Below, in pieces: positions 44,169 through 59,199 of a stretch of DNA of 64,000 bases (within the stretch, counting starts at the first letter, position 1; each line of letters starts with the position of its first letter). This stretch comes from Escherichia phage vB_EcoM_Schickermooser. Made by a program: the position numbers and the translations under genes. The stretch lies in sequence record NC_048196.1. One strand, written 5' to 3'. The notes below the pieces were generated by a model that was not told the DNA's origin, did not search any database, and saw only the letters and a list, made by a program, of their open reading frames with translations.

Positions 44169-44771
44169 TTATGGACATTCATACCATTCTTTTTTACCAC
44201 CGAAGGCCATCACCACATCGCAAATATCCAGACCAGCTTTACCTACACCATATGCTTTCAGCTTCCATTCTCCATCTTCACGAACCAGGGAAGCCACGTG
44301 GCAGATTGTGTTGCCAGCTACTTCAGGAGCCAGGAAGTCAAAATCCAGAATTTCCACATTACGCTCGGAGTCGAAGATTTTAAGCATACCTTCAGAAGCA
44401 TGACCAAAACGTTTCAGACCTGTATCATCATCAATAGTCAGAACAAAGGCAATCTCTTGTGCATCAGGAGAGATTTTAGCCAGAGTAATATCAATCTGCT
44501 CCATGCTGCCAGTTCCATCACGAACATCGTCACCAGCAAAGGTAGAACGTTCAGGATCAAACTTATTAGCATAGCAAACCAGATGACGTGCAGACAGCAT
44601 TTCAGGATTGCCAGCGGCATTGTGACGACAAACCAGTGCACTTACATCCAGATCCAGTTTAGAATCAGATTTCCAAGAGAATTCCAGGCGTAGTTCTTTC
44701 AGAGCCGGAGCAACTTTCTTCAGGGAAATTTTTTCGCTAGAGCCTTTTTTCAGGGAAATTTTATCAGTCAT
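44169..44771 (-). CDS. terD: TerD-family stress-response protein
   Basis: N-terminal ISLKKG...ISLKK, DLDVSALVC, and C-terminal EDGEWKLKAYGVGKAGL match TerD-domain signatures. Confidence 0.85.
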   Translation of the reverse strand: MTDKISLKKGSSEKISLKKVAPALKELRLEFSWKSDSKLDLDVSALVCRHNAAGNPEMLSARHLVCYANKFDPERSTFAGDDVRDGTGSMEQIDITLAKISPDAQEIAFVLTIDDDTGLKRFGHASEGMLKIFDSERNVEILDFDFLAPEVAGNTICHVASLVREDGEWKLKAYGVGKAGLDICDVVMAFGGKKEWYECP

Positions 44772-44786: not shown

Positions 44787-45056
44787 TTATTTAAGTGTAA
44801 TACCAGTTACAGTCAATTCTACTTCCAAAAGCTTAGATGTGTTTTGGATTGCTACTAATTGTGCATGATGGTTTAGTTCTACAGCAGAATAATCATTTTC
44901 CCCATCATCTACTTTTAAATAAACAATTACTTCACTAAGGTCTAAACCATTTTCGTCAAATGCATTTTCATAGACGAAAGTATCTCCTACATCCAAATCT
45001 TTAATGGTAAGGCATCGTTTATTTACTTTTTGCTCATCAATTTCGAAGTTTAACAC
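44787..45056 (-). CDS. hypothetical protein, paralog B of 46078..46356
   Basis: Shares DLDVGDTFVYENAFDENGLD and EVELTVTGITLK with paralog A. Confidence 0.45.
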   Translation of the reverse strand: MLNFEIDEQKVNKRCLTIKDLDVGDTFVYENAFDENGLDLSEVIVYLKVDDGENDYSAVELNHHAQLVAIQNTSKLLEVELTVTGITLK

Positions 45057-45285
45057 TTCTTCCTCCTAATGTTATCTCCGGTTTGTATATACGAAGAATT
45101 ATAGCATTTTCATTTTCTTTGTCAACCCATTCTTCATAATCAGGCCATACATGAATCTCTACTCTACTTACAATATCTTCCATCCGCACAGTCCCAATGA
45201 AATATTCTTTGAGACTGCGCATAATGAAAGCTTCTCTCTCGCGCCAATAATTTTCTACGACTTGAGAGGCAAGCTCGTCGATCAT
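45037..45285 (-). CDS. hypothetical protein
   Basis: 82 aa. Confidence 0.35.
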   Translation of the reverse strand: MIDELASQVVENYWREREAFIMRSLKEYFIGTVRMEDIVSRVEIHVWPDYEEWVDKENENAIILRIYKPEITLGGRSVKLRN

Positions 45286-46076
45286 TTTTTAGCACCTACT
45301 TTAACAACCCACTCTCCGAACTCTTCAGATAAGAGTTTGTCATAAAGCTCTGAATCTGTCAAGTCTAAATCTTTAATGCCAATAAAACCAACATTGTCAT
45401 AAGCATTTGCCAGTTCTTTCAGGAAGCTGAACTTCTCATTACCAACGCCAACCATGAACCAATAGATAGGCTTATTCTTATTCTCTTCAATAAGACGACG
45501 AACAGCACTAGGATCACCATTCTCACCGTCTGTCTGGAAGAATACAACGCCAGGAGTAACATCAGCACCTGGTTCAGATACAGCTACAACTTTTTCACGC
45601 TCTACCGATACTGTTTCAGTTTTACCAAGCAGACGATTAAAGAAGCCTTTCTTTGGAGCCTCCTCTTGTACCACTTGTTTAGTGGTAACATATTTGGTAA
45701 CAGTGCCAAAATACTCATCGTAGATATCTGCCATTACAGGGGCGTAATTTGTTCCACCTCCGATACGAACATTACGCATACATTTACCAACGTAGTCATC
45801 GTAAACGTCTGCTGTTGCTGGAGTAAGCTCTTGAGAACTCGTATTGAAGGCCCACATGTCAATTTGTTCATTATCGTCGAACAGCATACCAAAAGGAAGC
45901 AGTTTACCTACAAAATCACTCACTACCCCACGAGTATATAGACCATGCATACTACCAGAAATATCTAGAGCACATGCTACACGAAGAACAATCTTACCTT
46001 CGTTCAGGTTCTTATTCTTTTTCAGAGAGAAAGCAAGGTTTTCTTGACGTTTTTTCAGGCTGATTTTCTCGGACAT
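45282..46076 (-). CDS. von Willebrand factor A domain protein (TerF/TerY-like)
   Basis: MIDAS motif DISGSM; N-terminal EKISLKK...SLKK resembles TerD leader. Confidence 0.6.
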   Translation of the reverse strand: MSEKISLKKRQENLAFSLKKNKNLNEGKIVLRVACALDISGSMHGLYTRGVVSDFVGKLLPFGMLFDDNEQIDMWAFNTSSQELTPATADVYDDYVGKCMRNVRIGGGTNYAPVMADIYDEYFGTVTKYVTTKQVVQEEAPKKGFFNRLLGKTETVSVEREKVVAVSEPGADVTPGVVFFQTDGENGDPSAVRRLIEENKNKPIYWFMVGVGNEKFSFLKELANAYDNVGFIGIKDLDLTDSELYDKLLSEEFGEWVVKVGAKK

Positions 46077-46077
46077 A

Positions 46078-46356
46078 TTATTTCTCCTTCTTAAGTGTAA
46101 TATTGGTAACTTCTAAATCTACTTCCACCATATTTGTATCTGGTGGGATGCAATGAGTATAGCCTCGTTGTGCTAGTGATCCATTAATACAGATCGCACT
46201 GTTTGTGGAATTTTTAATGAACACCAAGTTACGGTAGGTATCCAACCCTGCGTCTTCATAGGCATCATAATACATGAATGTGTCCCCTATGCCAAGGTCT
46301 TCGAAAGCAATAGGTAAATCCTGACACTTTTCTTCTTGAATATTGAATCTAAACAC
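46078..46356 (-). CDS. hypothetical protein, paralog A of 44787..45056
   Basis: GTG start at 46356 with GGAGG RBS gives 92 aa aligned with paralog B; track ATG 46422 would overlap upstream gene by 74 nt. Confidence 0.4.
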   Translation of the reverse strand: MFRFNIQEEKCQDLPIAFEDLGIGDTFMYYDAYEDAGLDTYRNLVFIKNSTNSAICINGSLAQRGYTHCIPPDTNMVEVDLEVTNITLKKEK

Positions 46357-46912
46357 GCATACCTCCTCTACCAATTTTGAAGCCCAAATCGTAAGCTTCC
46401 TTAGTGATCTTTTGTAACTCACTTATAGGAAGTGTTACAAGAGGATCATCTTCTTCAATTTCCATCTTGTCATCTTCTGTTTCAATGAGAGTATTATGCA
46501 CTTTGTGATAAGGGTTGTCAACACGTTTAAACTTATTCTTTTCTGTGCTGAAAAAACAATCTGGATCTTCTTCGCCATCACCCCAACCTTGGTTAGGATC
46601 TCCGTCAGATTGTTCTGTAGGGATTTCACCTGTAAAATACTCTTCCAGCACCATAGCGATACCGTCCCTTGGATTCGAGGAATGCATTAAATCACAAACC
46701 TTACCCCAATCCATAGCCCATTCGAACCGTTCACGAACGCCATTTTCATCCTCCTTTCCAGAGAAAACACAACCATAACTATCATAGTTGCCATACATCT
46801 CTTCAATAACAACACCATCCTTCAAAAGAAAGAGATAGCAAGGTGATCCGTCGAAAGAAGTAGAAAGGGCAGCTTTGCCCGATTCCTTACACAAAAAGCT
46901 AAAACAACCCAT
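46349..46912 (-). CDS. hypothetical acidic protein
   Basis: 187 aa, D/E-rich. Confidence 0.4.
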   Translation of the reverse strand: MGCFSFLCKESGKAALSTSFDGSPCYLFLLKDGVVIEEMYGNYDSYGCVFSGKEDENGVRERFEWAMDWGKVCDLMHSSNPRDGIAMVLEEYFTGEIPTEQSDGDPNQGWGDGEEDPDCFFSTEKNKFKRVDNPYHKVHNTLIETEDDKMEIEEDDPLVTLPISELQKITKEAYDLGFKIGRGGMRV

Positions 46913-47275: not shown

Positions 47276-47469
47276 TCTTCTTCCTCATTGAAGTCAATAT
47301 CTGCAAGGAGTTGAAATTTACGGAAGTTACGACAACCTTCATAAATATAACAATCACGACAAACTGCTAGAACACTTGGGGGATATATGCCTCCCATCGG
47401 TGCGAATCGTTTTTCGTCATCATAACGGACACCAATGTCTTCATCAATTATATAGATACGGATTCTCAT
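47272..47469 (-). CDS. hypothetical small Cys-containing protein
   Basis: 65 aa. Confidence 0.35.
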   Translation of the reverse strand: MRIRIYIIDEDIGVRYDDEKRFAPMGGIYPPSVLAVCRDCYIYEGCRNFRKFQLLADIDFNEEEE

Positions 47470-48578
47470 TTACCAAGCCCTCGTTTCACAGCAGCTACCA
47501 TCCCGTCTTCCAGAGATTGAACTTCATTAATATAATCAACACGAGCAGCACGGGCTTCCGTATTGATGCGGTTAGTTTCTTCCAACATCTTAACCAAGTT
47601 TTCCTGATCGTGACGCAGAGTTTCAATATCCAACACTTGACGGTTAGCCAGTGCTGCTGCTTCGATCTGATTCTGTGTGGCAAGATCGCTACCCAGTTTA
47701 ATTGCCAGGTTAAATTCATCAAGAACGTTATTCTGCGTCTCTGCTGCTTTCATTTGACGTAAGCTCTCGATATACATTGAGAAGTTAGCAGAGTAAGCAG
47801 GAATAACATTATTTACTATGTTACGCGCAGATCGCATTAAGCTTGCAGAAACTTTTTGCATACCTTGCACACGTGGTCCCATTTGGACACACAGTAGGCG
47901 CAATGCTTTTAAATCGGCAATACGAATCTCCAGAAGATCCAAAGTATCTCGGATCACTTGTCGCTGTTCTACTGCATCTTCTGGAAGAGCAGCCAAAGCT
48001 TGTTCTTCTTTTTCATAGGTTGCTGTTAGAAGCTGCATATCTCGGTTCAAACTTGCAGCATATTGTCCAATAGCTTGATGCAGTTTTTCAAGATATACCA
48101 AGGAATCTTCTTCTTTGCGAATATCCATTTGAAGGTTCTTTACCAACTCTTCAATACGGTTATTAACATTATCAAACTCCCCAAACAGGTCTTCTTTCAT
48201 ACCCATAACTTTTTTAATGAGTTTAGTAATACCTTTGCTTTGTTTAATAGAGTTTGGATCAAGTTGTTTTGCCTGTTTAATCAAAGCTGTGAGTCGTTCA
48301 CTCATCTGATCGCCTTGATTACTACGTTGATGTTTTAATACCTCGGCATTCAAGGAACGCAAGGTTGTCCCTGCCTCTGCCCCGATCTCTTCGATCTCTT
48401 GTCGGGTCATAGAAGGCAAAACTGGGACTTCTTGCGGTGCGGCTGGTGCATAAACAGGACTGGCATCTAATACGCTTGGAGCGAATACAGATTTACTTGC
48501 ATCTGTTGTTGCAGTGAATACACTCATTTCAGACTTCTTCTGACCACCAGTAGCTGCTTTTAAAAACGGACTTGTCAT
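47466..48578 (-). CDS. TelA-like (toxic anion resistance family) coiled-coil protein, tentative
   Basis: 370 aa, predominantly helical/coiled-coil, size and context (between terC and terD) consistent with TelA/KlaA family; not motif-verified. Confidence 0.4.
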   Translation of the reverse strand: MTSPFLKAATGGQKKSEMSVFTATTDASKSVFAPSVLDASPVYAPAAPQEVPVLPSMTRQEIEEIGAEAGTTLRSLNAEVLKHQRSNQGDQMSERLTALIKQAKQLDPNSIKQSKGITKLIKKVMGMKEDLFGEFDNVNNRIEELVKNLQMDIRKEEDSLVYLEKLHQAIGQYAASLNRDMQLLTATYEKEEQALAALPEDAVEQRQVIRDTLDLLEIRIADLKALRLLCVQMGPRVQGMQKVSASLMRSARNIVNNVIPAYSANFSMYIESLRQMKAAETQNNVLDEFNLAIKLGSDLATQNQIEAAALANRQVLDIETLRHDQENLVKMLEETNRINTEARAARVDYINEVQSLEDGMVAAVKRGLGK

Positions 48579-49165
48579 TCTTCATTCTCCTCTTCTGCAT
48601 CTCTTATGTATGGTGAAACACCGTATTCTTTAGCTACTTTAACCCAATCGTCCCATTTATACAACCATAATTTTCCTTCTGTTCCTTCTTTATCTGATTT
48701 TAACCACATATTAGGTTGCTTACCTGGATACATGCGATTAGGTTTACGATTATACCCTCTAACACATCTTGTCGCAAACCTATCCACCAAAACAAGAACA
48801 TATTTATATTCATGGTTCAACGGCTCTTTGGAAGTAGCTTTAGGGTTTGCCCCTAATTCTGCTGCCAGTTTTTGCCAATGAGCACCGTGCCGACTAAACT
48901 TACCCATACAACCATCAATAGCATGAGCAATTTCGTGCTTCATTGTATCCACGATCATATCTCTTGTAGAGTTCTTATGCAAGTGCCAATTTACAACAAC
49001 AATTTTATCTCGGTAGTTGCACCAACCGAAAGAGTTATTCACTTTGTTTCTAACGCAAGCTTTATATCCTGCTTCACGTAACATGTTGTAGTAAACAGGA
49101 AAATCTTCTTTTATTTCCTGCATCACTTCCCACCACAAGAGTTGCAAGTCTCTCTCGGTATACAT
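48575..49165 (-). CDS. SprT-like zinc metallopeptidase (HExxH)
   Basis: MKHEIAHAIDGCMGKFSRHGAHWQKLAAELG contains HExxH followed by HG..W. Confidence 0.55.
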   Translation of the reverse strand: MYTERDLQLLWWEVMQEIKEDFPVYYNMLREAGYKACVRNKVNNSFGWCNYRDKIVVVNWHLHKNSTRDMIVDTMKHEIAHAIDGCMGKFSRHGAHWQKLAAELGANPKATSKEPLNHEYKYVLVLVDRFATRCVRGYNRKPNRMYPGKQPNMWLKSDKEGTEGKLWLYKWDDWVKVAKEYGVSPYIRDAEEENEE

Positions 49166-50766: not shown

Positions 50767-50784
50767 AGCCTCCCGAAGGAGGCT
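50767..50784 (-). terminator. terminator/attenuator hairpin after terC
   Basis: AGCCTCC-CGAA-GGAGGCT followed on minus strand by ATTTTAT. Confidence 0.5.
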
Positions 50785-50790
50785 CATCTA

Positions 50791-51765
50791 TTAAACAGCA
50801 GCTTGTTCTTTTTCAGGGAAGATAAAGCTTGCAATAACACCAAGAGCTAATGTGCCTAGAACAATCATCAGACTTACGTTAGGGGAAATATCATGCGGAA
50901 GGAATGACCACTTGGCATGAAGTGTTTCACCGAACGGGTGATACATAAGTTTAGCACCAACAAACACCAGAACCACAGCAACAGCTTTCTCTAAGTGAAC
51001 CAAATATTTCACAGCTACACTTAACACAAAGAAAAGTGCACGTAAACCAAGAACAGCCATCAGCATTGCAGAATAAACTAGCAGAGGTTCTTGTGTCACA
51101 CCGATCACAGCCGGAACTGAATCAAAAGAGAAGACAATATCTGTAAGCTCAATAACAAACACACAAAGAAGAGCAGGAGTTGCATATTTAATACCATTCT
51201 TAATGGTAATGAACTTTTCACCATCCAGTGCATTGTGCACAGGCAGAACTTTACCTACTAAACGAACAGCCCAATGCTTAGAGTAATCAATATCCTCTTC
51301 TTCGTCACAACCTTTGATGATAGCCACGGCAGACCAAGCTACAATCAAACCGAACAACACTTGGACCGACCAATGAAGGTTAAACAAAGCGGTCCCTGCT
51401 GCAACAAAAATACCTCGGAAAACAATGGCTCCTGCAATCCCCCAAAGTAAAATCTTATGTTGGAGATGTGTGCTCTTAATTCCAAAGCTTGCAAAAATTG
51501 CCATGAACACCATCAGGTTATCTACAGAAAGACTCTTTTCCAACACATAGCCGCTTAGGAAAAGCGCGGCAAACTCTTTACCATGTTCTACCCAAATGAA
51601 TGCGTAATATCCTAAAGCTAAAGCAATCCAAAAAACAGACCAAAGCAAAGCAGATTTAATTCCAATTTCTTTATTCTCTTTATGACCAAAGAAATCGATA
51701 CCAATAGACAATGCTAAAATACCAACTAAAACAACTACATCAATAATTGGGAAACCAAGTTGCAT
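50791..51765 (-). CDS. terC: TerC-family integral membrane protein
   Basis: Multi-pass membrane protein with EKSLSVDN and FSFDSVPAV motifs characteristic of TerC family. Confidence 0.85.
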   Translation of the reverse strand: MQLGFPIIDVVVLVGILALSIGIDFFGHKENKEIGIKSALLWSVFWIALALGYYAFIWVEHGKEFAALFLSGYVLEKSLSVDNLMVFMAIFASFGIKSTHLQHKILLWGIAGAIVFRGIFVAAGTALFNLHWSVQVLFGLIVAWSAVAIIKGCDEEEDIDYSKHWAVRLVGKVLPVHNALDGEKFITIKNGIKYATPALLCVFVIELTDIVFSFDSVPAVIGVTQEPLLVYSAMLMAVLGLRALFFVLSVAVKYLVHLEKAVAVVLVFVGAKLMYHPFGETLHAKWSFLPHDISPNVSLMIVLGTLALGVIASFIFPEKEQAAV

Positions 51766-51844: not shown

Positions 51845-52066
51845 TTATTTTGTTGAATGAGAGGAAAAGATTCCTCGTAATACAGCCAGAATAAACGAAA
51901 CACAAACCACGGTCCAGAAGGTTACTGGAACAGTGATATCTGCATGACCCATAACTTCAGCAACATAGTTGTAAGCCAGCAACAGTAACCAAGCTGGAAT
52001 CAAACTAAGCATAAAAGCAATAACAAAAAAGCTTACCACTGCAACAATACCTGCAAAAACACCCAT
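51845..52066 (-). CDS. small membrane protein (2 predicted TM segments)
   Basis: 73 aa; two hydrophobic helices. Confidence 0.45.
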   Translation of the reverse strand: MGVFAGIVAVVSFFVIAFMLSLIPAWLLLLAYNYVAEVMGHADITVPVTFWTVVCVSFILAVLRGIFSSHSTK

Positions 52067-52078
52067 ACTAATCTCCTC

Positions 52079-52564
52079 TTAAAGTTTATAAATAGTCACA
52101 TCGTGACCAGCTTTTACTAAAGTTTCTTTGATCATGACTTCAATGATAGCCCAATTACCTCCAGCATGACCTGCACCTATCATAGGTAGACCAATCTTAT
52201 GTGCTGGCTGATCTCCTTTATCGTAATTGTGTAAGTCCATTGCCATAGCTGCAAGAGCATCATACAGCGCATCATAATCTAGTTGACGACCTTTACTATT
52301 GTATCCATAACGATACTGTCCATAAAGGTTGTATACCATAGGGTTAGGATAATCTTCTGGTTCCCCTAAACTAAAAGAACCAAGCTTTTTCTGGTTTCCT
52401 GCTCCTGTAGCTAAATCTGCTTCGTATGCATATGGAAACGCATATTTTATTTGTGGGGCAATACCTGCCCCCATATTACACATACAGTTGCAACAATGAG
52501 CAATAACAGTTACTTCACCTGTTTTAGCGGCATCAATAAGATTACCTGTTTTCATTTTAAGCAT
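52079..52564 (-). CDS. macrodomain protein (TARG1/OARD1/DarG-like)
   Basis: VIAHCCNCMCNMGAGIA and PMIGAGHAGGNW...VTIYKL resemble TARG1-type macrodomain motifs; start at ATG 52564 with AAGGAG RBS. Confidence 0.65.
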   Translation of the reverse strand: MLKMKTGNLIDAAKTGEVTVIAHCCNCMCNMGAGIAPQIKYAFPYAYEADLATGAGNQKKLGSFSLGEPEDYPNPMVYNLYGQYRYGYNSKGRQLDYDALYDALAAMAMDLHNYDKGDQPAHKIGLPMIGAGHAGGNWAIIEVMIKETLVKAGHDVTIYKL

Positions 52565-52577
52565 TTTTAGCTCCTTA

Positions 52578-53405
52578 TTACAGAATGTGTTGTTTTGTGT
52601 AACGATCCAAGAATTCAAAGTTTTCAGCATACTTTGCAATTCGATTGTAGCCTTCAGCTAAACAGCCGAAGAAAAGTTGTTCCACATAGTAGTGTGGCAA
52701 TTGGCTAAGAATGATTTTGAAGTCTTCATGATTTTGGCCCATAAGATACTTAATAGGACGAACAAGGCACTGTGCATCACGTTCTTCATTAATCATTTTA
52801 ACAAACGCTTCTGGTGTATTAATGTAGTTAAAATTCAGTTTAGCTTCAGTATCTGCTTGATTACCTTCGTATTTTGCAAAATACAAGAAGTAAACATCAT
52901 TTTTAACTTGATTTTCATCAAGAATCTCAATCAGTTTGTCTTCATGCGTTCCGGTGATATTTACATCATCAATGAACACCAACTTCTTATCACCCCAGAA
53001 TTCTTTGTTGCAGTAGAATGTATCCCCATCAATAAGTTTCTTACGACTAGCTTTATCCAAGAAGCCATAATCGTTAATATAACTAACTTTACGATGAATA
53101 ATATCCAGTTCTGCTGAACGACCTTGATCATATTGTGCTTGCAACATATTAAAGTAATTAATAAAATGATCTGTCATCATTGTTGCAGCATTATGCACAT
53201 GGTTATAAGGAGAAGGAATGATAACAAATTGTTCCCCAATATGTTTCATTGCCACTTGAGCAAAAAACTGAAGTGCCAATTCTTTACCCATACGACGCGC
53301 AGCTTGGTTACTGCCAAATTTCAATTTTGAATAATCTTTGATATCAAAAGTAGCAGTTTCCAGGTCATCAAATTTATTTGCAAAAATTTGAGTTTGATTA
53401 CGCAT
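52578..53405 (-). CDS. phosphoribosyltransferase-type (PRT type I fold) protein
   Basis: KLVFIDDVNITGTH matches PRPP-binding motif of type I PRTases/PRPP synthetases. Confidence 0.5.
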   Translation of the reverse strand: MRNQTQIFANKFDDLETATFDIKDYSKLKFGSNQAARRMGKELALQFFAQVAMKHIGEQFVIIPSPYNHVHNAATMMTDHFINYFNMLQAQYDQGRSAELDIIHRKVSYINDYGFLDKASRKKLIDGDTFYCNKEFWGDKKLVFIDDVNITGTHEDKLIEILDENQVKNDVYFLYFAKYEGNQADTEAKLNFNYINTPEAFVKMINEERDAQCLVRPIKYLMGQNHEDFKIILSQLPHYYVEQLFFGCLAEGYNRIAKYAENFEFLDRYTKQHIL

Positions 53406-54054
53406 TTACAATTTCTCCTCTTTTAAGTTTCTCTAGTAAGTCGTTAGGGTTCTTAATATGACAGAAGTTAATCCCTATGTCAACACATTTTCCATCAAAT
53501 TCTTCGCTGTCCCCAACATGTAAAATCTCTTCAGCCTTCAAAGGAATGCTTGAATATGTGGCGGTCCTAACAAAGAATCTAGGATCTGGTTTACACAACA
53601 GATGTTCGTCTGAAAAATGCATAAATTCAAAACAATTCCAACTGTCAAACATACAAGCACGACGCAAAATATCCCCAGATATGAAATTAGTATTGCTTTT
53701 AATACTAAGATCATATTTACCAGACAAGTATAGCAAACAAACTGGCAAATCTAAAGCAATATGTGGAGGAAATTTAAGAAACCATTGTTCACACTCAAAA
53801 CGCATTTGTGCAGATTCTACAGGGGTTAAACCTATCTTTCTTCCCAACATGTTCCATGCATATGCTACGCCTTCTGCACACCCATTTAGTGCAGCATTAT
53901 CCATAATTTCTTTGGCATCTTTATATGCTTCTTTTGCGGCACGTTCAGACATTCTACCATATGTGGCAATAGTGTGCGTACGTGCATCTGCATAGTTTTG
54001 ATTGGCAGAAATAAGAGTATTCCATACATCAAAAGAGATATGTTTTATTGTCAT
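53398..54054 (-). CDS. HAD-superfamily hydrolase
   Basis: Motif I-like ISFDVWNTL and motif IV-like HVGDSEEFD. Confidence 0.5.
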   Translation of the reverse strand: MTIKHISFDVWNTLISANQNYADARTHTIATYGRMSERAAKEAYKDAKEIMDNAALNGCAEGVAYAWNMLGRKIGLTPVESAQMRFECEQWFLKFPPHIALDLPVCLLYLSGKYDLSIKSNTNFISGDILRRACMFDSWNCFEFMHFSDEHLLCKPDPRFFVRTATYSSIPLKAEEILHVGDSEEFDGKCVDIGINFCHIKNPNDLLEKLKRGEIVNA

Positions 54055-54055
54055 A

Positions 54056-54661
54056 TTAGGCCCACCATGCATCAAGATTTAAGTTACTGTCTACCACAAC
54101 TTGCTCTATGTGGTAGCCTTTTATCTGTATCCCACTGTTCAAGAGCATACCATATGCCTCATTGAAACGCAACTTATCTTCTGCGGAATATAAGCGAGCA
54201 TTGTAAAATCGGTAATCAAGTTCTTCAGCATTAGAAGAAATACGGAAGAAGTTTGTTTCTACTTCAGGATCACTTGCTGAAGTTTTAATGTGAACTTCTC
54301 CGTAATTTTCTTTGCTTAGATCCATGAAAAGAACACAGGCAACATGTTTGAACATTCGTTCTAGTTTGTAACGAACAACATTGAAACCTGCATTCTCAAG
54401 TTTTTCTACACATTGCAACATTAACGTAGTGTCGAGATCGCTTTGATACTTTGTTAACATACGATCACGTTGAGACTTTGTATCCCGATGTAAATCAATT
54501 GTTGTGCATTTGGCACCAATGATCTTAGCTGCTTTCATCAACTCTTCAGAACTAACGTTAGATAAAGTAAGATGAAAATGGGCTTTCCACACTTTTTGAG
54601 TAGGGACACCAAAAGATTTATCCCCACTATTCGGCATGTTAACTACTACACTATGTTGCAT
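54056..54661 (-). CDS. hypothetical protein (one HxT motif; possible 2H-phosphoesterase relative, weak)
   Basis: AHFHLTL motif; second HxT motif not found. Confidence 0.3.
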   Translation of the reverse strand: MQHSVVVNMPNSGDKSFGVPTQKVWKAHFHLTLSNVSSEELMKAAKIIGAKCTTIDLHRDTKSQRDRMLTKYQSDLDTTLMLQCVEKLENAGFNVVRYKLERMFKHVACVLFMDLSKENYGEVHIKTSASDPEVETNFFRISSNAEELDYRFYNARLYSAEDKLRFNEAYGMLLNSGIQIKGYHIEQVVVDSNLNLDAWWA

Positions 54662-54676
54662 TACTTATCTCCTCAC

Positions 54677-54868
54677 TTAAAATGGAAGTCTTTGAAGTTC
54701 ATCTCCTCCGATATCAAGTAATTTAGCAACATCTCGATCAGAAAGCAACTCTTTTCTTTGTAAAATATCCACAAGGGTTGCAAGAATCTCCTTAACGTCT
54801 CGATCACTGTTCTTCAAAAGTTCTCCCGCTGTTCCTACCTTGTCTCCTACAGCAAAGTATGTAACCAT
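54677..54868 (-). CDS. hypothetical small protein
   Basis: ATG at 54868 with AGGAGG RBS. Confidence 0.4.
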   Translation of the reverse strand: MVTYFAVGDKVGTAGELLKNSDRDVKEILATLVDILQRKELLSDRDVAKLLDIGGDELQRLPF

Positions 54869-54881
54869 ACAACCTCCTACG

Positions 54882-55352
54882 CTAATCTGATTGCCAACCA
54901 CTCGCCGTTTTGGTCCATAATCTTTGATTATCTGATCCTCTGAAAGGTTTTGTGGTTGGATTGTTTATTTCATACTTTCCGTCTACAATAATGTCAACAA
55001 GATTTTTAATATACAAAGGCACTTCCTCAAAAGTATATCCTGTATACACCATTATATCTTTGCTTGACCCATAAACGTCTCTAACCTTTTCTATAAGGTT
55101 TTTAACATTGTAAATATTCTGCGGATCTAATGGTTCTCCTCCTAAAATTGTTAAACCTTTTACAAACGGTCTTGACAAATCTTTTAAAACTTGTTCTACA
55201 TTTTCGTTAGTGAACGGTTTCCCATAAGAATAAGACCAGGCTTTCTGGTTAAAACAGCCACGACAACCGTGGCTACAACCACTAACCCAGAGGGAGCACC
55301 TAACTCCCTCACCATTAATAAGATCTACAGGTTCATATCCTGCAAAATTCAA
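54882..55352 (-). CDS. nrdG: anaerobic ribonucleotide reductase activating protein (radical SAM)
   Basis: CSHGCRGC (CxxxCxxC) near N-terminus; 156 aa; directly downstream of nrdD. Confidence 0.8.
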   Translation of the reverse strand: MNFAGYEPVDLINGEGVRCSLWVSGCSHGCRGCFNQKAWSYSYGKPFTNENVEQVLKDLSRPFVKGLTILGGEPLDPQNIYNVKNLIEKVRDVYGSSKDIMVYTGYTFEEVPLYIKNLVDIIVDGKYEINNPTTKPFRGSDNQRLWTKTASGWQSD

Positions 55353-57163
55353 AGATGTTTCTCCCTTTGCAAAACTTCCTGCATTTTACCTTTGTTATAA
55401 GGCCGTGAATTAGGGGCAGAAAGATACCCTGATACACGTCTAACTACAGAAATAGTTTCTTCTTCATGGTTGCCACAATTAGGACACTCAAACCCTTTAG
55501 CCGTTGCCTTAAATTCTCCATGAAAACCACACTTAAAGCATTGATCCACGGGCTGATTAATACCAAAATAGTGAATATGTTCATAAGCGTAGTCTACTAA
55601 AGTCTCCAAAGCTTCTAAGTTATTCTTTAAGTTTGATGTTTCGACATAACTTATGTTACCACCATTGCTAATCTGTGCAAAACCTGCTTCATAATCCCAT
55701 TTTTCAAAAGGATTTGTTACCAACCATACAGGTTGATGAAAAGAATTAGTAAGATAGTCTCTTTCTACCAGACCTGGATATTTTTCATTTAAAGCTGTTG
55801 CAAATTTATAGCACAAGGATTCTGCTGGAGTTCCATAAAGACTAAATGCCAACTTAGATCGTTCTTTAAACACAGCACACACATCTTTCATATGTTGCAG
55901 AATGTTTTTACCTAGTTCCTTTTTATCTTTTTCCTCTGGATAAAGAATTTCCAAGGCTTCGGCAAGACCTACATAACCAATACTAATAGAAGCATAACCA
56001 CCTTCAAACAAAACACCAATTTCATCGTTGGCATTTAAACGCGCTAAAGCACCTTCCATGAAAAGAATAGGGTTTTCAGATGCTTTGGTATGTCTAATAC
56101 GGTTTACACGTAGCATGTGAGCATCGTAGGCTATCTCCATATGTTTATTAAGAAGATCGGTGAAAGATTCTCCTTTACTTCTCGCTTCCGCAGCAATCAG
56201 AGGCAAGTTGATAGAAACTACTCCAAGGTTGAATCGTCCATCATATTTTTCTCCTTGTTCGGTGGCATAGTACGACAAAAAGGAACGACAACCCATACTC
56301 GTAACGGTACCATCTGCTGATCCCGTAACTTCTTTGTTCAAAGGAACAGAAATAAAATCTGGATAAATACGATCAGCACAACATGCCAAAGCTTGTTGCT
56401 TAAGGTCGTAGTTAGGATCACTAGGTTTCATGTTAACACCTTCTTGTAAAAAGAAAATAACTTTAGGGAATACAGGCGTTACATGATCTTTGCCTAGACC
56501 GTTACTATGCACTTTAAGATAGTTAGCTGTGATCATTCTGCCAAAAACAGAGGTATCCAGACCCATACTGATTGTAATAAAAGGAGATTGTCCATTAACA
56601 CTCATTAAAGTGTTAACCTGATACAAGAGAGTTTGCATAGCGTCATATACATCTTGTTCGGTCATTTCTAGAGCTTCTTTCCTTGCATAACAACCGTAGC
56701 GACGTTTGGTTATCTCCATGTTTTTAAGGAAACTGGCTTCAACATAAGGACTAAGACCTTTATCAATGTGAGCACACGTCTGACCTCCATACTGACTGGA
56801 GGCAACAGCTTGGATGATTTGAGTTAGCACTGTAGTAGCTACTCCAATAGATTTTGGTTTTTCTATCTGTGCAGCACCGATCTTAAAACCATTCTCTAAC
56901 ATATCTTGATAATTAACAAGACAACAGTTTGTAAGAGGAGAGAGCAGATAATCCAAGTCGTGAATATGTCCAAAACCTTCTGTATGCCATTCTGACAAGT
57001 TTTTTGGCAGTATCTGTGTCATTGCCATATGTTTGCTTAAAATCCCCGCCAAGAGATCCCTATGCGTGTTAACGAGGTGGGAAGGTTTGTTTGCATTCTC
57101 TCTGGTGTATGTTTCTGAAGTGCGATCTAAAAAAGAAAAAACATCTTGGTACAAATCTTTCAT
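55349..57163 (-). CDS. nrdD: anaerobic ribonucleoside-triphosphate reductase (class III)
   Basis: 604 aa; C-terminal zinc site CFKCG...CPNCG and glycyl-radical motif RRVSGYL. Confidence 0.85.
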   Translation of the reverse strand: MKDLYQDVFSFLDRTSETYTRENANKPSHLVNTHRDLLAGILSKHMAMTQILPKNLSEWHTEGFGHIHDLDYLLSPLTNCCLVNYQDMLENGFKIGAAQIEKPKSIGVATTVLTQIIQAVASSQYGGQTCAHIDKGLSPYVEASFLKNMEITKRRYGCYARKEALEMTEQDVYDAMQTLLYQVNTLMSVNGQSPFITISMGLDTSVFGRMITANYLKVHSNGLGKDHVTPVFPKVIFFLQEGVNMKPSDPNYDLKQQALACCADRIYPDFISVPLNKEVTGSADGTVTSMGCRSFLSYYATEQGEKYDGRFNLGVVSINLPLIAAEARSKGESFTDLLNKHMEIAYDAHMLRVNRIRHTKASENPILFMEGALARLNANDEIGVLFEGGYASISIGYVGLAEALEILYPEEKDKKELGKNILQHMKDVCAVFKERSKLAFSLYGTPAESLCYKFATALNEKYPGLVERDYLTNSFHQPVWLVTNPFEKWDYEAGFAQISNGGNISYVETSNLKNNLEALETLVDYAYEHIHYFGINQPVDQCFKCGFHGEFKATAKGFECPNCGNHEEETISVVRRVSGYLSAPNSRPYNKGKMQEVLQREKHL

Positions 57164-57224: not shown

Positions 57225-57246
57225 GAGGGAAATCAAAAAAGGCGCA
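57225..57246 (-). terminator. rho-independent terminator upstream of nrdD block
   Basis: GGCGC-aaagt-GCGCC hairpin followed on minus strand by TTTTTTGATTT. Confidence 0.65.
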
Positions 57247-57266
57247 AAGTGCGCCTTTAAGTTTTA

Positions 57267-58652
57267 TCATTTGGAGAGGAATTGTCTTCCCATGATCTTA
57301 CCGTTCTTCACAGCGGTCCCATCGTGTCCATTGTAATCCCAGGTTCCATCGATATTACGCAAGAAGCTATCACGAACAGTATAGGCTTTACCGTTCTCTA
57401 CTTTACTTTCTTCCACAATGATTGCCATAACAAGCTTATTTTCAATTTCGGTAGTAACCGATTCTTTGATACCCTCTGTAACTTCACGATCATATTGGAT
57501 ATAAACTCGCTCCTCGGTTACTTGCACGTCTACCACATTTTTAAATGTGTAGGTCTGTTGCGTAGTGTAGAGGACACGAACGACACTCTTCTTACCTACC
57601 GGAGGCTTCTTACGAGGCTTACGGTAACGTGGTTTAGGGTTGTTAGTTGGAAGCCAACCAACAATATCCCGATCATATCCAACATGACCCCAAGTGAAAT
57701 GCGTAGCCGATCCACTATCCGTAGTTCCGTCACGAAAGAGAACTTCTACGTGACCACCACAAGGGCGGTGTCCACCATTATTATAGTTGTATTTTGCCGT
57801 GCGCGGGAGAATGAAGTATTCTTTAATCGCCCACTCTTCCAGATTGTCGATATTCCAAGTGAATACTGTTCCCTTAGCAACATCTGTTTGACCATTGTTG
57901 AAGCGAACCTGCACGAAATCTTCTGAAGGCATAACACCTGTGTTCGGCAGATATTCAAATGCAGTATCTTCCGCTACAAACTGTTCTTCCTCTTGCTCCT
58001 CAATACTTGGCACAGGCGCAGCTTCATCGTATTTCGCAGCAAACATATTTTTAAATTCTTGAGCCGTGACTTCTACAAGGCCGCGATCACCAGTAGCAGC
58101 AGAGTGTGGGCGTGGTAAATCCCCAACTTCAATATGCATTGCATCTAAGCCTGCTTGACGATCAAAGAAGATAACCTTGCGGAATTGTTTATCTTTATAT
58201 TGTGGCAGTTCATACATACTTGGATCGATTGTCTTCAAACGTTCAGCATCTTCTGGCTTCCAGAAGCTTTTACCTGTTGCAAATCTAAAGTCTACCAGTA
58301 GTTTAACAACATCTCCTAATGATAAACTATCTGCATCTACGAAAACGTCTTCGATTCCCAATAACCCTGATTTCTTAAGAATCAGATCTAACATGTAACC
58401 TCCTGTGGTTTGTTCTGCATCTGGATAACGATCAACACTGGTGCTGGTTACACCGTTTATTTCACCAGTGGAGGCATTGTAGGAAATATATGGGAAGGTC
58501 ATATCGTTCATTGCAAAATCACCTGAACAGGTTGGATCATCTTCTCCCTCCCAGCCATACACCTTCACAATACCTTCACACAATTTGTCATACACACCAG
58601 CGCGACGTGCTGCTTCAGCAACTTCCTGTTTACGGGCAAATTTATTAATCAT
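57267..58652 (-). CDS. hypothetical protein (461 aa)
   Basis: Start at ATG 58652 with AGGAGG RBS. Confidence 0.4.
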   Translation of the reverse strand: MINKFARKQEVAEAARRAGVYDKLCEGIVKVYGWEGEDDPTCSGDFAMNDMTFPYISYNASTGEINGVTSTSVDRYPDAEQTTGGYMLDLILKKSGLLGIEDVFVDADSLSLGDVVKLLVDFRFATGKSFWKPEDAERLKTIDPSMYELPQYKDKQFRKVIFFDRQAGLDAMHIEVGDLPRPHSAATGDRGLVEVTAQEFKNMFAAKYDEAAPVPSIEEQEEEQFVAEDTAFEYLPNTGVMPSEDFVQVRFNNGQTDVAKGTVFTWNIDNLEEWAIKEYFILPRTAKYNYNNGGHRPCGGHVEVLFRDGTTDSGSATHFTWGHVGYDRDIVGWLPTNNPKPRYRKPRKKPPVGKKSVVRVLYTTQQTYTFKNVVDVQVTEERVYIQYDREVTEGIKESVTTEIENKLVMAIIVEESKVENGKAYTVRDSFLRNIDGTWDYNGHDGTAVKNGKIMGRQFLSK

Positions 58653-59199
58653 GATTCCTCCTGTTAATTGCCATAGATGCACGAGGTTCGGCTATGGCTG
58701 TTGCATAAATATATGGATGACCTTGTGGAGAAGTTCTCATCCCAAACGAACCTAATTCTAACCCATACATATCTTCCACGTCAAGACCAATATCTGTCTC
58801 TATGATTTGAGTTTGAACTTTGTAATACGTCCAAAAGAAATAGCGCATAGTTTCGGCATATTCTTTGACGGACGCTCCTGGATAAAACTCAATAATTTCC
58901 AACTTTAAGAAAATGTTAAAATGAGCATCATCCAACTCTTCTTCTGTTCGGTAGCAAGGTGTTAGAGCCATATAAGGATGATCTGTTGAAAATTCAAACC
59001 CATCTTTCTCCATCTGAAGGAAAGACTGCTCTGCACTAGCTACGTAGAACTTACCATTAGGATGCCCCAAGGGGCGATCCTCTTTACCTTCTGGTAATGT
59101 ATATGCAAGGATATCCGCATCTACAAGATAAGGGACTTCCAACATCTCCGCAAATCGCCCGTAGTAATCAATAGCTTGAGCAATAACAGCTACGTTCAT
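58645..59199 (-). CDS. hypothetical protein
   Basis: 184 aa. Confidence 0.4.
   Translation of the reverse strand: MNVAVIAQAIDYYGRFAEMLEVPYLVDADILAYTLPEGKEDRPLGHPNGKFYVASAEQSFLQMEKDGFEFSTDHPYMALTPCYRTEEELDDAHFNIFLKLEIIEFYPGASVKEYAETMRYFFWTYYKVQTQIIETDIGLDVEDMYGLELGSFGMRTSPQGHPYIYATAIAEPRASMAINRRNHD

What the first reader, a model, noticed from the sequence alone, without database searches (positions are those of the whole stretch)
52079..54661. TARG1/DarG-like macrodomain with PRT-type and HAD genes: candidate ADP-ribosylation reversal or nucleoside-metabolite module
The 161-aa protein carries HCxNxxxxMGAGIA and a C-terminal IGxG...VTIYKL pattern that I recognise as TARG1/OARD1-type macrodomain, the same class as the DarG antitoxin that removes ADP-ribose from DNA. 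DarT-type DNA ADP-ribosylation is an established anti-phage mechanism, so a phage macrodomain is a plausible counter-defence enzyme. Immediately upstream, in the same operon with overlapping stops and starts, are a PRT-type protein (KLVFIDDVNITGTH), a HAD hydrolase and a 201-aa protein with one HxT motif, downstream of nrdDG. Together with the adjacent Ter genes this matches the bacterial association of ter loci with a predicted nucleoside-like-metabolite pathway.
Basis: partly seen in the sequence, partly recalled or inferred. Interest (0 to 1): 0.7.

Follow-up and report, generated by a model that had tools for sequence, protein, structure and literature searches.

The report
Phage macrodomain beside Ter nucleoside-synthesis genes
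In this E. coli phage, four tightly packed genes turn out to be three separate things: a probable eraser of defensive DNA ADP-ribosylation (a relative of a T4 protein reported to do this), a two-enzyme pair that belongs to the phage's tellurite-resistance-like (Ter) gene set, and an uncharacterised protein linked elsewhere to RNA-end repair genes. The first two are ordinary members of known kinds; only the third is poorly known.

Summary
Window 52079-54661 (minus strand) encodes, in translationally coupled order, a 201-aa unknown protein, a HAD hydrolase, a PRTase_3 (PF15610) phosphoribosyltransferase and a 161-aa macrodomain. They lie between nrdDG and TerC, in a block bounded by two terminator-like hairpins. 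The window is a Phapecoctavirus (phAPEC8-like).

1. The macrodomain has the TARG1/DarG/SCO6735 fold. It carries Gln where DarG and TARG1 have the catalytic Lys. It is a homologue (39% identity, E 2e-21) of T4 Tk.4 (AdfM), whose knockout sensitises T4 to DarTG2. It is most likely a DNA de-ADP-ribosylase used for counter-defence.

2. HAD and PRTase_3 are adjacent in 40 of 41 loci, viral and bacterial. In bacteria the pair sits inside ter loci. This is the published Ter "nucleoside-like signal" pair.

3. The 201-aa protein belongs to an uncharacterised family that PADLOC labels "AbiEi". In metagenomic contigs that look cellular, members precede AbiEii nucleotidyltransferases, five of six fused to an RNA ligase domain. 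The phage copy is an orphan.

The macrodomain and the 201-aa gene join the pair only in this phage lineage. Novelty: a new member of known kinds.

The parts
57238..57258 (-). Terminator-like hairpin (9 bp stem, T-run) upstream of nrdD; upstream boundary of the block
55349..57163 (-). nrdD, anaerobic ribonucleotide reductase (context; first gene of the block)
   Evidence: ORF; annotation of near-identical relatives
54882..55352 (-). nrdG, activating protein (context)
54677..54901 (-). Small ORF of unknown function (63-74 aa, depending on start)
   Evidence: no Pfam match
54056..54661 (-). 201-aa protein of an uncharacterised alpha+beta family (PADLOC 'AbiEi' PDLC02277/02279). Orphan relative of proteins encoded just upstream of AbiEii nucleotidyltransferase(-RNA ligase) genes
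53398..54054 (-). HAD-superfamily hydrolase, REG-2/HDHD3-like. Motif I is S-F-D-x-W-x-T-L, with Trp at the D+2 position
52578..53405 (-). PRTase_3 (ComF-like, Ter-associated) phosphoribosyltransferase with PRPP loop VFIDDVNITGTH
52079..52564 (-). 161-aa stand-alone macrodomain, Gln type (N26, Q83). Homologue of T4 Tk.4/AdfM and SCO6735
51845..52066 (-). 73-aa hydrophobic (probable membrane) protein; sits between the macrodomain gene and TerC in this phage lineage
50791..51765 (-). TerC integral membrane protein
   Evidence: PF03741, E 4.8e-40
50767..50784 (-). Terminator-like hairpin directly after the TerC stop; downstream boundary of the block
47466..48578 (-). TelA (Ter system component)
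   Evidence: PF05816, E 3.2e-33
45282..46076 (-). vWA-TerF-like protein (Ter system component)
   Evidence: PF10138, E 2.8e-37
44169..44771 (-). TerD (Ter system component)
   Evidence: PF02342, E 3.2e-28

Best explanation
The interval is a mosaic of three functionally separate units that are co-transcribed in one block running from nrdD to TerC.

(1) The macrodomain. It is an ADP-ribosyl glycohydrolase of the ALC1-like class, which also holds TARG1, DarG and SCO6735. It uses a Gln (Q83) rather than a Lys in the active site. During infection it most likely removes ADP-ribose that host DarT2 places on thymidines in single-stranded phage DNA. In that role it acts as an orphan, DarG2-like enzymatic antitoxin, as reported for T4 Tk.4/AdfM. 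Shown here: the fold, the conserved residues and the homology. Inferred: the substrate and the phenotype.

(2) The HAD-PRTase_3 pair. It is the biosynthetic arm of the phage-borne Ter system (TerC, TerD, TelA, vWA-TerF). The PRTase would join phosphoribose from PRPP to an unknown base-like acceptor, and the HAD enzyme would process the phosphorylated product. The resulting nucleoside-like signal is thought to act through the TerD/TerC/TelA membrane complex, with published suggestions of superinfection exclusion or stress tolerance. Shown here: family membership and strict pairing inside ter loci. Inferred: the chemistry and the role.

(3) The 201-aa protein. It is an orphan member of an uncharacterised enzyme-like family. 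In metagenomic contigs that look cellular, members sit directly upstream of AbiEii-type nucleotidyltransferases, most of them fused to an RNA ligase domain. It probably acts on RNA or nucleotide ends, possibly as a second antitoxin-like counter-defence. This last part is speculative.
For: Macrodomain:
- Sequence matches in the PDB: SCO6735 3e-12, BT1257 5e-8, T. aquaticus DarG 4e-5, TARG1 1.5e-3.
- The NCBIfam and PADLOC DarG models match their macro part only.
- AF2 pLDDT 93.9. Foldseek top hits are TARG1, BT1257, Poa1p, DarG and SCO6735.
- N26 aligns with DarG N22. Q83 aligns with DarG K80, TARG1 K84 and SCO6735 Q85, and is invariant in 33 homologues.
- SCO6735 removes ADP-ribose from thymidine in DNA, rescues E. 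coli from DarT, and needs Gln85 (PMC9411070).
- BLASTP to T4 Tk.4: 39% identity over 124 aa, E 2e-21, same PHROG 335, and Gln at the same position.
- A tk.4 knockout sensitises T4 to DarTG2 (bioRxiv 10.1101/2025.11.20.689424). Macrodomain AdfM proteins of chimalliviruses de-ADP-ribosylate DNA (PMC13309987).

Independence of the units:
- tblastn finds the macrodomain in 2,337 phage records, PRTase_3 in 155 and the 201-aa family in 186, of which 110 are Rheinheimera phages. The organism tally for PRTase_3 lists no Rheinheimera phage.
- The macrodomain lies within 10 kb of PRTase_3 only in this phage lineage and in one other viral locus, and in no bacterial locus.

HAD-PRT pair:
- Adjacent in 40 of 41 loci.
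- The bacterial loci are ter loci holding TerD, TerY-type vWA, TerY_C, PP2C, kinase, TerC/DUF475 and vWA-TerF.
- The same reading is published for jumbo phages and some smaller tailed phages (PMC7824862).

201-aa protein:
- PADLOC 'AbiEi' models match the window protein (9e-13) and 10 of 10 distant members, full length.
- Genes directly upstream of AbiEii in L052, L053, L055, L057, L058 and L059. Five of these six AbiEii proteins also carry a T4 Rnl1-like ligase domain.

Block structure: terminator-like hairpins only at 57258-57238 and 50784-50767, with coupled gene junctions between.
Against: - No activity or phenotype was measured for any of these proteins.
- The macrodomain has Ala where SCO6735 has Lys34, a residue important for its DNA activity. 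Its P-loop (MGAGIA) is TARG1-like, so protein-linked or small-molecule ADP-ribose substrates remain possible.
- Poa1p, an ADP-ribose-1''-phosphate phosphatase, is an equally good structural match (TM 0.80).
- Tight translational coupling of the four genes could reflect a shared function that comparative genomics does not see.
- The HAD lacks the canonical D+2 Asp, so the assumed phosphatase step of the Ter model is uncertain.
- The T4 evidence comes from a preprint, and identity to Tk.4 is only 39%.
- Whether the AbiEii-RNA ligase partners are toxins or repair enzymes is unknown.
Confidence: 0.6

Rival explanations
1. One integrated pathway. PRTase_3 and HAD make a ribosylated, nucleoside-like compound. 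The macrodomain, an ADP-ribose or ribose-phosphate binding and hydrolysing fold, and the 201-aa enzyme modify, sense or recycle it for the Ter membrane complex.
For: The four genes are translationally coupled and lie in one terminator-bounded block with TerC. This order is conserved in Phapecoctavirus relatives. Macrodomains do process small ADP-ribose derivatives, and Poa1p is a close structural match.
Against: The macrodomain and the 201-aa family are absent next to HAD-PRT in 20 bacterial loci and in 9 of 10 other viral loci. The 201-aa gene is missing in L027 and L031, and extra DNA separates PRT from the macrodomain in L028 and L029. The closest phage homologue with a reported function, T4 Tk.4, sits in a T4 region whose annotation shows no Ter, PRT or HAD gene.
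Confidence: 0.12
2. RNA-repair by-product clearance. The macrodomain is a Poa1p-like ADP-ribose-1''-phosphate phosphatase. The 201-aa protein is an RNA-end or cyclic-phosphate processing enzyme. Together they support repair of tRNA damaged by host ribotoxins.
For: Relatives annotate the macrodomain as 'Macro_Poa1p_like phosphatase'. Poa1p gives Foldseek TM 0.80. The 201-aa family lies next to AbiEii-Rnl1 fusions, Rv2179c-like 3'-exoribonuclease, RlaP and Acb1, and is fused to NUDIX or HD domains. The KptA -> 2H -> Macro route is described for jumbo phages.
Against: No AbiEii-type or Rnl1-type sequence was found in the window. KptA and other ligase families were not tested. The 201-aa model has no match to solved 2H structures. 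By sequence the macrodomain is closer to SCO6735, BT1257 and Tk.4 than to Poa1p, which matches only residues 18-48 at E 4e-3.
Confidence: 0.12
3. The macrodomain erases protein ADP-ribosylation, or degrades soluble NAD-derived immune signals, rather than acting on DNA.
For: The P-loop is TARG1-like (MGAGIA), and the position of the DNA-binding Lys34 of SCO6735 is Ala. SCO6735 and TARG1 also act on proteins. A homologue in a 368-kb contig with phage-like gene content (L043) sits in a NAMPT/NUDIX/SIR2 NAD island. Macrodomains of jumbo phages have been proposed to degrade ADP-ribose-derived signals.
Against: The closest phage homologue with a reported phenotype (T4 Tk.4) has an anti-DarTG2 phenotype. 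The long basic 'mobile loop' of SCO6735 is retained with R, K and R residues.
Confidence: 0.1

Closest known systems
T4 Tk.4 / AdfM (anti-DarT factor, macrodomain)
   Same: Stand-alone phage macrodomain of about 155-160 aa. 39% identity over 124 aa, E 2e-21. Same PHROG 335. Gln at the position of the DarG catalytic Lys.
   Different: Different phage family and genomic neighbourhood; T4 tk.4 lies next to tk and vs. The window protein is untested. The chimallivirus AdfM (PhiKZ gp104) is the Lys type (N23/K78).
Streptomyces coelicolor SCO6735 (PDB 5E3B)
   Same: Closest solved structure by sequence (E 3e-12). The equivalents of Gln85 and Asn27 are conserved. The mobile loop has the same length. 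There is no TARG1 Asp.
   Different: Lys34 is Ala and Val25 is Cys in the phage protein. SCO6735 is a bacterial, DNA-damage-regulated protein.
DarG antitoxin / human TARG1
   Same: Same macro fold and ALC1-like class. Foldseek: TARG1 E 1e-10, T. aquaticus DarG E 3e-9.
   Different: No catalytic Lys (DarG K80, TARG1 K84) and no TARG1 Asp125. No C-terminal DarT-binding domain. No adjacent DarT.
Ter-system 'signal biosynthesis' pair, PRTase + HAD (Anantharaman, Iyer & Aravind 2012; Iyer et al. 2021)
   Same: PF15610 PRTase_3 with an upstream HAD gene, embedded among TerC, TerD, TelA and vWA-TerF, as in bacterial ter loci and jumbo phages.
   Different: The phage set is abbreviated: no ATP-grasp, TerB or TerY-kinase-phosphatase genes were found. 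HAD motif I has Trp at D+2, not the Asp of canonical phosphatases.
AbiEi antitoxin of AbiE type IV toxin-antitoxin systems
   Same: The 201-aa family matches two PADLOC 'AbiEi' models. Metagenomic members occupy the gene position directly upstream of AbiEii.
   Different: No winged helix-turn-helix and no Pfam AbiEi_1-4 match. No AbiEii sequence was found in the window. Most partner AbiEii proteins are fused to an RNA ligase domain, so they may be repair enzymes rather than toxins.

Membership tests
Macrodomain, ALC1-like class (TARG1/DarG/SCO6735) | Macro fold with an ADP-ribose-binding P-loop | tested here: met
   AF2 pLDDT 93.9. Foldseek TARG1 E 1e-10 with TM 0.77/0.87; BT1257, DarG and SCO6735 also near the top. 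Pfam Macro scores 21.1 bits, just under the 22-bit cutoff.
DarG antitoxin | Catalytic Lys (T. aquaticus DarG K80) | tested here: not met
   The aligned residue is Gln83, invariant in 33 homologues.
DarG antitoxin | C-terminal DarT-binding domain and an adjacent darT gene | tested here: not met
   The protein is 161 aa. The NCBIfam DarG model matches positions 2-147 of 338 at 34.8 bits against a cutoff of 250. The neighbouring genes are PRTase_3 and a 73-aa hydrophobic protein.
TARG1/OARD1 | Lys84-Asp125 catalytic dyad | tested here: not met
   Lys84 aligns with the Q83/Y84 position, and Asp125 aligns with Ala in GAGHAGGNW.
SCO6735-type (Gln-type) DNA/protein ADP-ribosyl hydrolase | Equivalents of Gln85 and Asn27, and an extended mobile loop | tested here: met
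   Q83 and N26 are conserved, and the loop region aligns without gaps.
SCO6735-type (Gln-type) DNA/protein ADP-ribosyl hydrolase | Lys34, contributing to DNA binding | tested here: not met
   The aligned residue is Ala33 in MGAGIA.
AdfM (phage anti-DarT2 macrodomain, T4 Tk.4 type) | Homology to Tk.4 as a stand-alone phage macrodomain | tested here: met
   BLASTP E 2e-21, 39% identity; both match phrog_335.
AdfM (phage anti-DarT2 macrodomain, T4 Tk.4 type) | Protects the phage against DarTG2 and removes ADP-ribose from thymidine in ssDNA | not testable with these tools
   Needs plaque assays and biochemistry.
Ter-associated PRTase_3 (PF15610) | Profile match above the curated cutoff, with a PRPP-binding loop | tested here: met
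   143 bits against a cutoff of 28.7. VFIDDVNITGTH; D146, D147, T151, G152 and T153 are invariant in 28 sequences.
Ter-associated PRTase_3 (PF15610) | Operon link to a HAD gene and to Ter genes | tested here: met
   A HAD gene lies directly upstream in 40 of 41 loci. TerD, TerC, vWA and TerY are present in the bacterial loci examined. TerC, TelA, vWA-TerF and TerD are in the window.
HAD-superfamily phosphatase | Motif I DxDx[T/V], with a nucleophile Asp and a D+2 acid/base Asp | tested here: not met
   Motif I is S-F-D-x-W-x-T-L. The Asp nucleophile is present, but D+2 is Trp in at least 90% of 37 family members. Motifs II-IV (SN, KP, GD...D) are conserved.
AbiEi antitoxin (canonical, Dy et al. 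2014) | N-terminal winged-helix DNA-binding domain; Pfam AbiEi families | tested here: not met
AbiEi antitoxin (canonical, Dy et al. 2014) | Encoded directly upstream of AbiEii | tested here: not met
   No AbiEii-like ORF was found in the window. The feature is met for metagenomic homologues in 6 loci.
2H phosphoesterase (LigT/CPDase/Acb1) | Two HxT/S motifs on a bilobed LigT-like fold | tested here: not met

The most novel reading that the evidence does not exclude
The 201-aa protein would be the phage-borne orphan of a previously undescribed enzyme family. In metagenomic contigs that look cellular, that family is the upstream partner of AbiEii-type nucleotidyltransferase-RNA ligase fusions. 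In the phage it would work as an enzymatic, antitoxin-like counter-defence that reverses nucleotidyl-transfer or ribotoxin damage to tRNA ends. Together with the DarG2-like macrodomain, this phage would then carry two orphan 'enzymatic antitoxins' placed around the Ter signal-biosynthesis pair.
Probability: 0.2. Interest if true: 0.7.

Novelty: new member of a known kind. Interest (0 to 1): 0.4.

Why it matters
Phapecoctaviruses are common candidates for E. coli and Klebsiella phage therapy. If this macrodomain is an AdfM-type eraser of DarT2 marks, it helps predict which DarTG-carrying hosts these phages can infect. It would also extend the Gln-type (SCO6735-like) chemistry to a large phage family, found in 2,337 of 50,697 phage records.

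The HAD-PRTase_3 pair is a compact two-gene handle on a question open since 2012: what the Ter 'nucleoside-like metabolite' is. The conserved Trp at the HAD D+2 position suggests the assumed phosphatase step should be re-examined.

The 201-aa family is an enzyme-like fold with no solved homologue. It is found in phages and giant viruses and is linked to nucleotidyltransferase and RNA ligase genes, so it is worth a biochemical look.

Tried and rejected
- The afdb50 Foldseek library was unavailable.
- The 2012 Ter paper and the 2016 RNA-repair paper from the Aravind group could not be read. Their content is cited through papers that describe them or from my own knowledge.
It was repeated with a tighter subgroup.
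- tblastn of a cellular 201-aa family member against plasmids found nothing.
- Profile searches of PRTase_3 and of the 201-aa family against PDB sequences gave no real homologue.
- NARP3 was checked as a possible role for the PRT. It is unrelated, being a PnuC-like transporter plus a NadR-like enzyme.
- Macrodomain and 201-aa genes are not adjacent in the macrodomain region of a Rheinheimera Barba phage, whose relatives carry both genes.
- Sigma-70 promoter-like matches in the block do not exceed chance: 42 found against 39.8 expected.
- Source names for cellular 201-aa family members were only 'hypothetical protein'.
Full report
**Identity of the window and anatomy of the locus**

The interval is 99% identical to Escherichia phage AV126 and 89-97% identical to dozens of phAPEC8-like myophages (genus Phapecoctavirus, Stephanstirmvirinae). 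All genes of interest lie on the minus strand. In order of transcription they are:

| Gene | Coordinates |
|---|---|
| nrdD | 55349-57163 |
| nrdG | 54882-55352 |
| small ORF | 54677-54901 |
| 201-aa ORF | 54056-54661 |
| HAD | 53398-54054 |
| PRT | 52578-53405 |
| macrodomain | 52079-52564 |
| 73-aa hydrophobic ORF | 51845-52066 |
| TerC | 50791-51765 |

The junctions are tight. The spacing is TAAtATG between the 201-aa gene and HAD, an 8-nt overlap between HAD and PRT, and 13 nt with an AAGGAG ribosome-binding site before the macrodomain ATG at 52564. The two strongest terminator-like hairpins on this strand (9- and 7-bp stems with five G-C pairs each) are at 57258-57238 and at 50784-50767, directly after TerC; weaker stems with three G-C pairs also lie inside the block. 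The four genes therefore sit in one nrdD-to-TerC block. Promoter-like matches do not exceed chance. Further downstream lie a SprT-like protein, TelA, vWA-TerF and TerD.

**The macrodomain**

- Pfam Macro scores just below its cutoff (21.1 against 22 bits).
- Sequence searches against solved structures give SCO6735 (5E3B) 3e-12, BT1257 5e-8, T. aquaticus DarG 4e-5 and TARG1 1.5e-3.
- The NCBIfam and PADLOC DarG models match through their macro part only.
- An AF2 model built from 33 homologues has pLDDT 93.9. Its best PDB matches are TARG1 (E 1e-10, TM 0.77/0.87), BT1257, Poa1p, DarG and SCO6735.

The catalytic residues differ, however. DarG N22 aligns with N26. DarG K80 and TARG1 K84 align with Gln83, and TARG1 D125 aligns with Ala. 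Gln83 is invariant in the family. This is the SCO6735 configuration.

SCO6735 has been shown to remove thymidine-linked ADP-ribose from DNA, to rescue E. coli from DarT, and to need Gln85 (PMC9411070). One difference stands out: SCO6735 Lys34, which is important for its DNA activity, is Ala in the phage protein. The phage P-loop (MGAGIA) is TARG1-like.

**Link to a phage protein with a reported function**

The window macrodomain is a homologue of T4 Tk.4: 39% identity over 124 aa, E 2e-21, Gln at the same position, and both proteins in PHROG 335. A transposon-sequencing preprint reports that tk.4 becomes essential on a DarTG2 host and that a clean knockout sensitises T4 to DarTG2. It names the gene adfM. 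Independently, Lys-type macrodomains of chimalliviruses (PhiKZ gp104) were shown to de-ADP-ribosylate DarT2-modified DNA and to protect the phage (PMC13309987).

It is also no longer a new idea. This macrodomain family occurs in 2,337 of 50,697 phage records, including T4-like, Felixounavirus-like, PAK_P1-like and Vequintavirus-like phages.

**The PRT and the HAD**

The PRT is a clear PRTase_3 (PF15610, E 1.5e-41) with a canonical PRPP loop. It has no solved homologue; only the PRPP loop weakly resembles that of HPRT.

I fetched 21 loci from prokaryotic genome assemblies (one, L006, is phage DNA in a metagenome bin) and 15 viral loci that encode relatives. In 40 of the 41 loci held at that point, a homologue of the HAD gene lies directly upstream of the PRTase. 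The exception is a degraded second copy on a Rhizobium plasmid.

The bacterial neighbourhoods I examined are ter loci:
- Tannerella: TerD, three TerY-type vWA proteins (one with TerY_C), PP2C, a kinase, HAD, PRTase_3 and a P-type ATPase.
- Pedococcus: three TerD proteins, TerC/DUF475, vWA-TerF, HAD and two PRTase_3 genes.
- Two Bacteroidetes bins: a similar content.

Loci from large phage-like contigs show TelA, vWA-TerF, TerC, HAD, PRTase_3 and TerD together. This is the association proposed by Anantharaman, Iyer and Aravind (2012). Iyer et al. [quoted passage not shown] In that model the PRTase and HAD make a nucleoside or nucleotide signal, TerD and TerB sense it, and TerC, TelA and TerF act at the membrane, possibly against superinfecting phages (PMC7824862).

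One detail deserves attention. HAD motif I is S-F-D-x-W-x-T-L, with Trp at the D+2 acid/base position in at least 90% of 37 members. This resembles REG-2/HDHD3-type HADs rather than canonical DxDxT phosphatases.

**Are the four genes one module?**

Comparative evidence says no.
- The macrodomain lies within 10 kb of PRTase_3 only in Stephanstirmvirinae-like contigs and in one other viral locus. It is absent from all 20 bacterial loci.
- The 201-aa gene is adjacent only in Phapecoctavirus-like contigs. It is missing in L027 and L031.
- In L028 and L029, 0.5-0.9 kb of extra DNA separates PRT from the macrodomain.
- Record counts differ by an order of magnitude: macrodomain 2,337, 201-aa family 186 (110 of them Rheinheimera phages), PRTase_3 155 with no Rheinheimera phage in its organism tally.
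- T4 tk.4 lies in a region of T4 whose annotation shows no Ter, PRT or HAD gene.

**The 201-aa protein**

It has no Pfam or NCBIfam match. A profile search of 1.8 billion representative proteins finds 251 relatives. Most are stand-alone proteins of 170-230 aa. Some are fusions: NUDIX at the N-terminus, an HD_4 domain, or an HTH_3 domain.

A constellation of polar residues is invariant or nearly so: H28, H30, T32, K51, T53, D66, T70, R97, K99, E101, E122, H124, S142, N144, R156, E186, D191 and D197, plus a terminal WW. This pattern suggests an enzyme.

Unexpectedly, two PADLOC models named 'AbiEi' match the window protein (9e-13) and all 10 distant members tested, over their full length, with E-values down to 7e-26. 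Context explains the name. In six metagenomic contigs, one with archaeal-type neighbours, a family member lies directly upstream of, and overlaps, a gene with an AbiEii nucleotidyltransferase domain. In five of these six, the AbiEii domain is fused to a T4 Rnl1-like RNA ligase domain.

In phage-like contigs, relatives lie next to:
- an Rv2179c-like 3'-exoribonuclease;
- Acb1, with a NADAR gene nearby;
- an RlaP nucleotidyltransferase.

The window itself has no AbiEii or Rnl1 sequence. I therefore read the phage gene as an orphan of a family tied to RNA 3'-end nucleotidyl transfer and ligation. It could be an antitoxin-like counter-defence or an RNA-end processing enzyme. This part is inference.

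**Verdict**

The most likely picture, at confidence about 0.6, has three parts:
- a Gln-type AdfM/SCO6735-like DNA de-ADP-ribosylase;
- the Ter-associated HAD-PRTase_3 pair;
- an orphan member of an uncharacterised family labelled 'AbiEi'.

All three are co-transcribed in an accessory block. Neither is new. The macrodomain is a new member of a known kind, and the Ter link is already published. What remains of interest is the unknown chemistry of the HAD-PRTase_3 pair, with its non-canonical HAD, and the 201-aa family.

Noticed in passing
window 54056-54661 (-); L052 5001-6448; L053, L055, L057, L058, L059: The 201-aa protein's family is the one behind PADLOC 'AbiEi' models PDLC02277/02279. In metagenomic contigs that look cellular, members precede AbiEii nucleotidyltransferase genes, and five of six of those are fused to a T4 Rnl1-like RNA ligase domain. 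This suggests an RNA-end repair or modification pair rather than a classical AbiE toxin-antitoxin pair.
   Followed up: yes
window 53398-54054 (-): The Ter-associated HAD family has motif I S-F-D-x-W-x-T-L. A conserved Trp replaces the D+2 general acid/base Asp of canonical HAD phosphatases, so the 'phosphatase' step assumed in the Ter biosynthesis model may involve different chemistry.
   Followed up: partly
window 57238-57258 and 50767-50784 (-): Two G+C-rich hairpins followed by T-runs bracket the nrdD-to-TerC genes. This suggests one transcription unit joining anaerobic ribonucleotide reductase, the four genes of the finding and TerC.
   Followed up: partly
window 46078-46422 (-) and 44787-45056 (-): Two small proteins of unknown function are paralogues (31% identity, E 1e-13). 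They flank the vWA-TerF gene inside the Ter region.
   Followed up: partly
window 48575-49165 (-): A SprT-like metallopeptidase-domain protein (PF10263, E 4e-9) overlaps the start of TelA. Homologues were detected in the same position in the near-identical relatives and in two of five more distant Stephanstirmvirinae-like loci (L029, L030).
   Followed up: no
L043 1997-12181 (368-kb contig): A contig with phage-like gene content carries two tandem macrodomain genes. The first is about 49% identical to the window protein. They sit in an island with NUDIX, NAMPT, HAD_SAK_2, NT5C, a deaminase and SIR2 genes, which looks like a NAD/ADP-ribose metabolism cluster.
   Followed up: no
L006 (JAEZZU010000022.1, 'MAG: Proteobacteria bacterium'): A 13-kb contig binned into a bacterial metagenome-assembled genome encodes a PRTase 99% identical to the window's, with the same nrdD-to-macrodomain gene order. 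It is almost certainly phage DNA mis-binned into the genome.
   Followed up: no
window 57267-58682 (-) and 58645-59199 (-): One relative annotates these ORFs as 'class III ribonucleotide reductase' (471 aa) and 'putative seryl-tRNA synthetase' (184 aa). Neither has any Pfam match at E <= 0.01, so those names look unsupported.
   Followed up: partly
(phage records): Near-identical phapecoctavirus or related Stephanstirmvirinae sequences are deposited as Acinetobacter (ABPW7), Campylobacter (A150) and Pseudomonas (PsgM04F) phages. These host labels may be unreliable.
   Followed up: no
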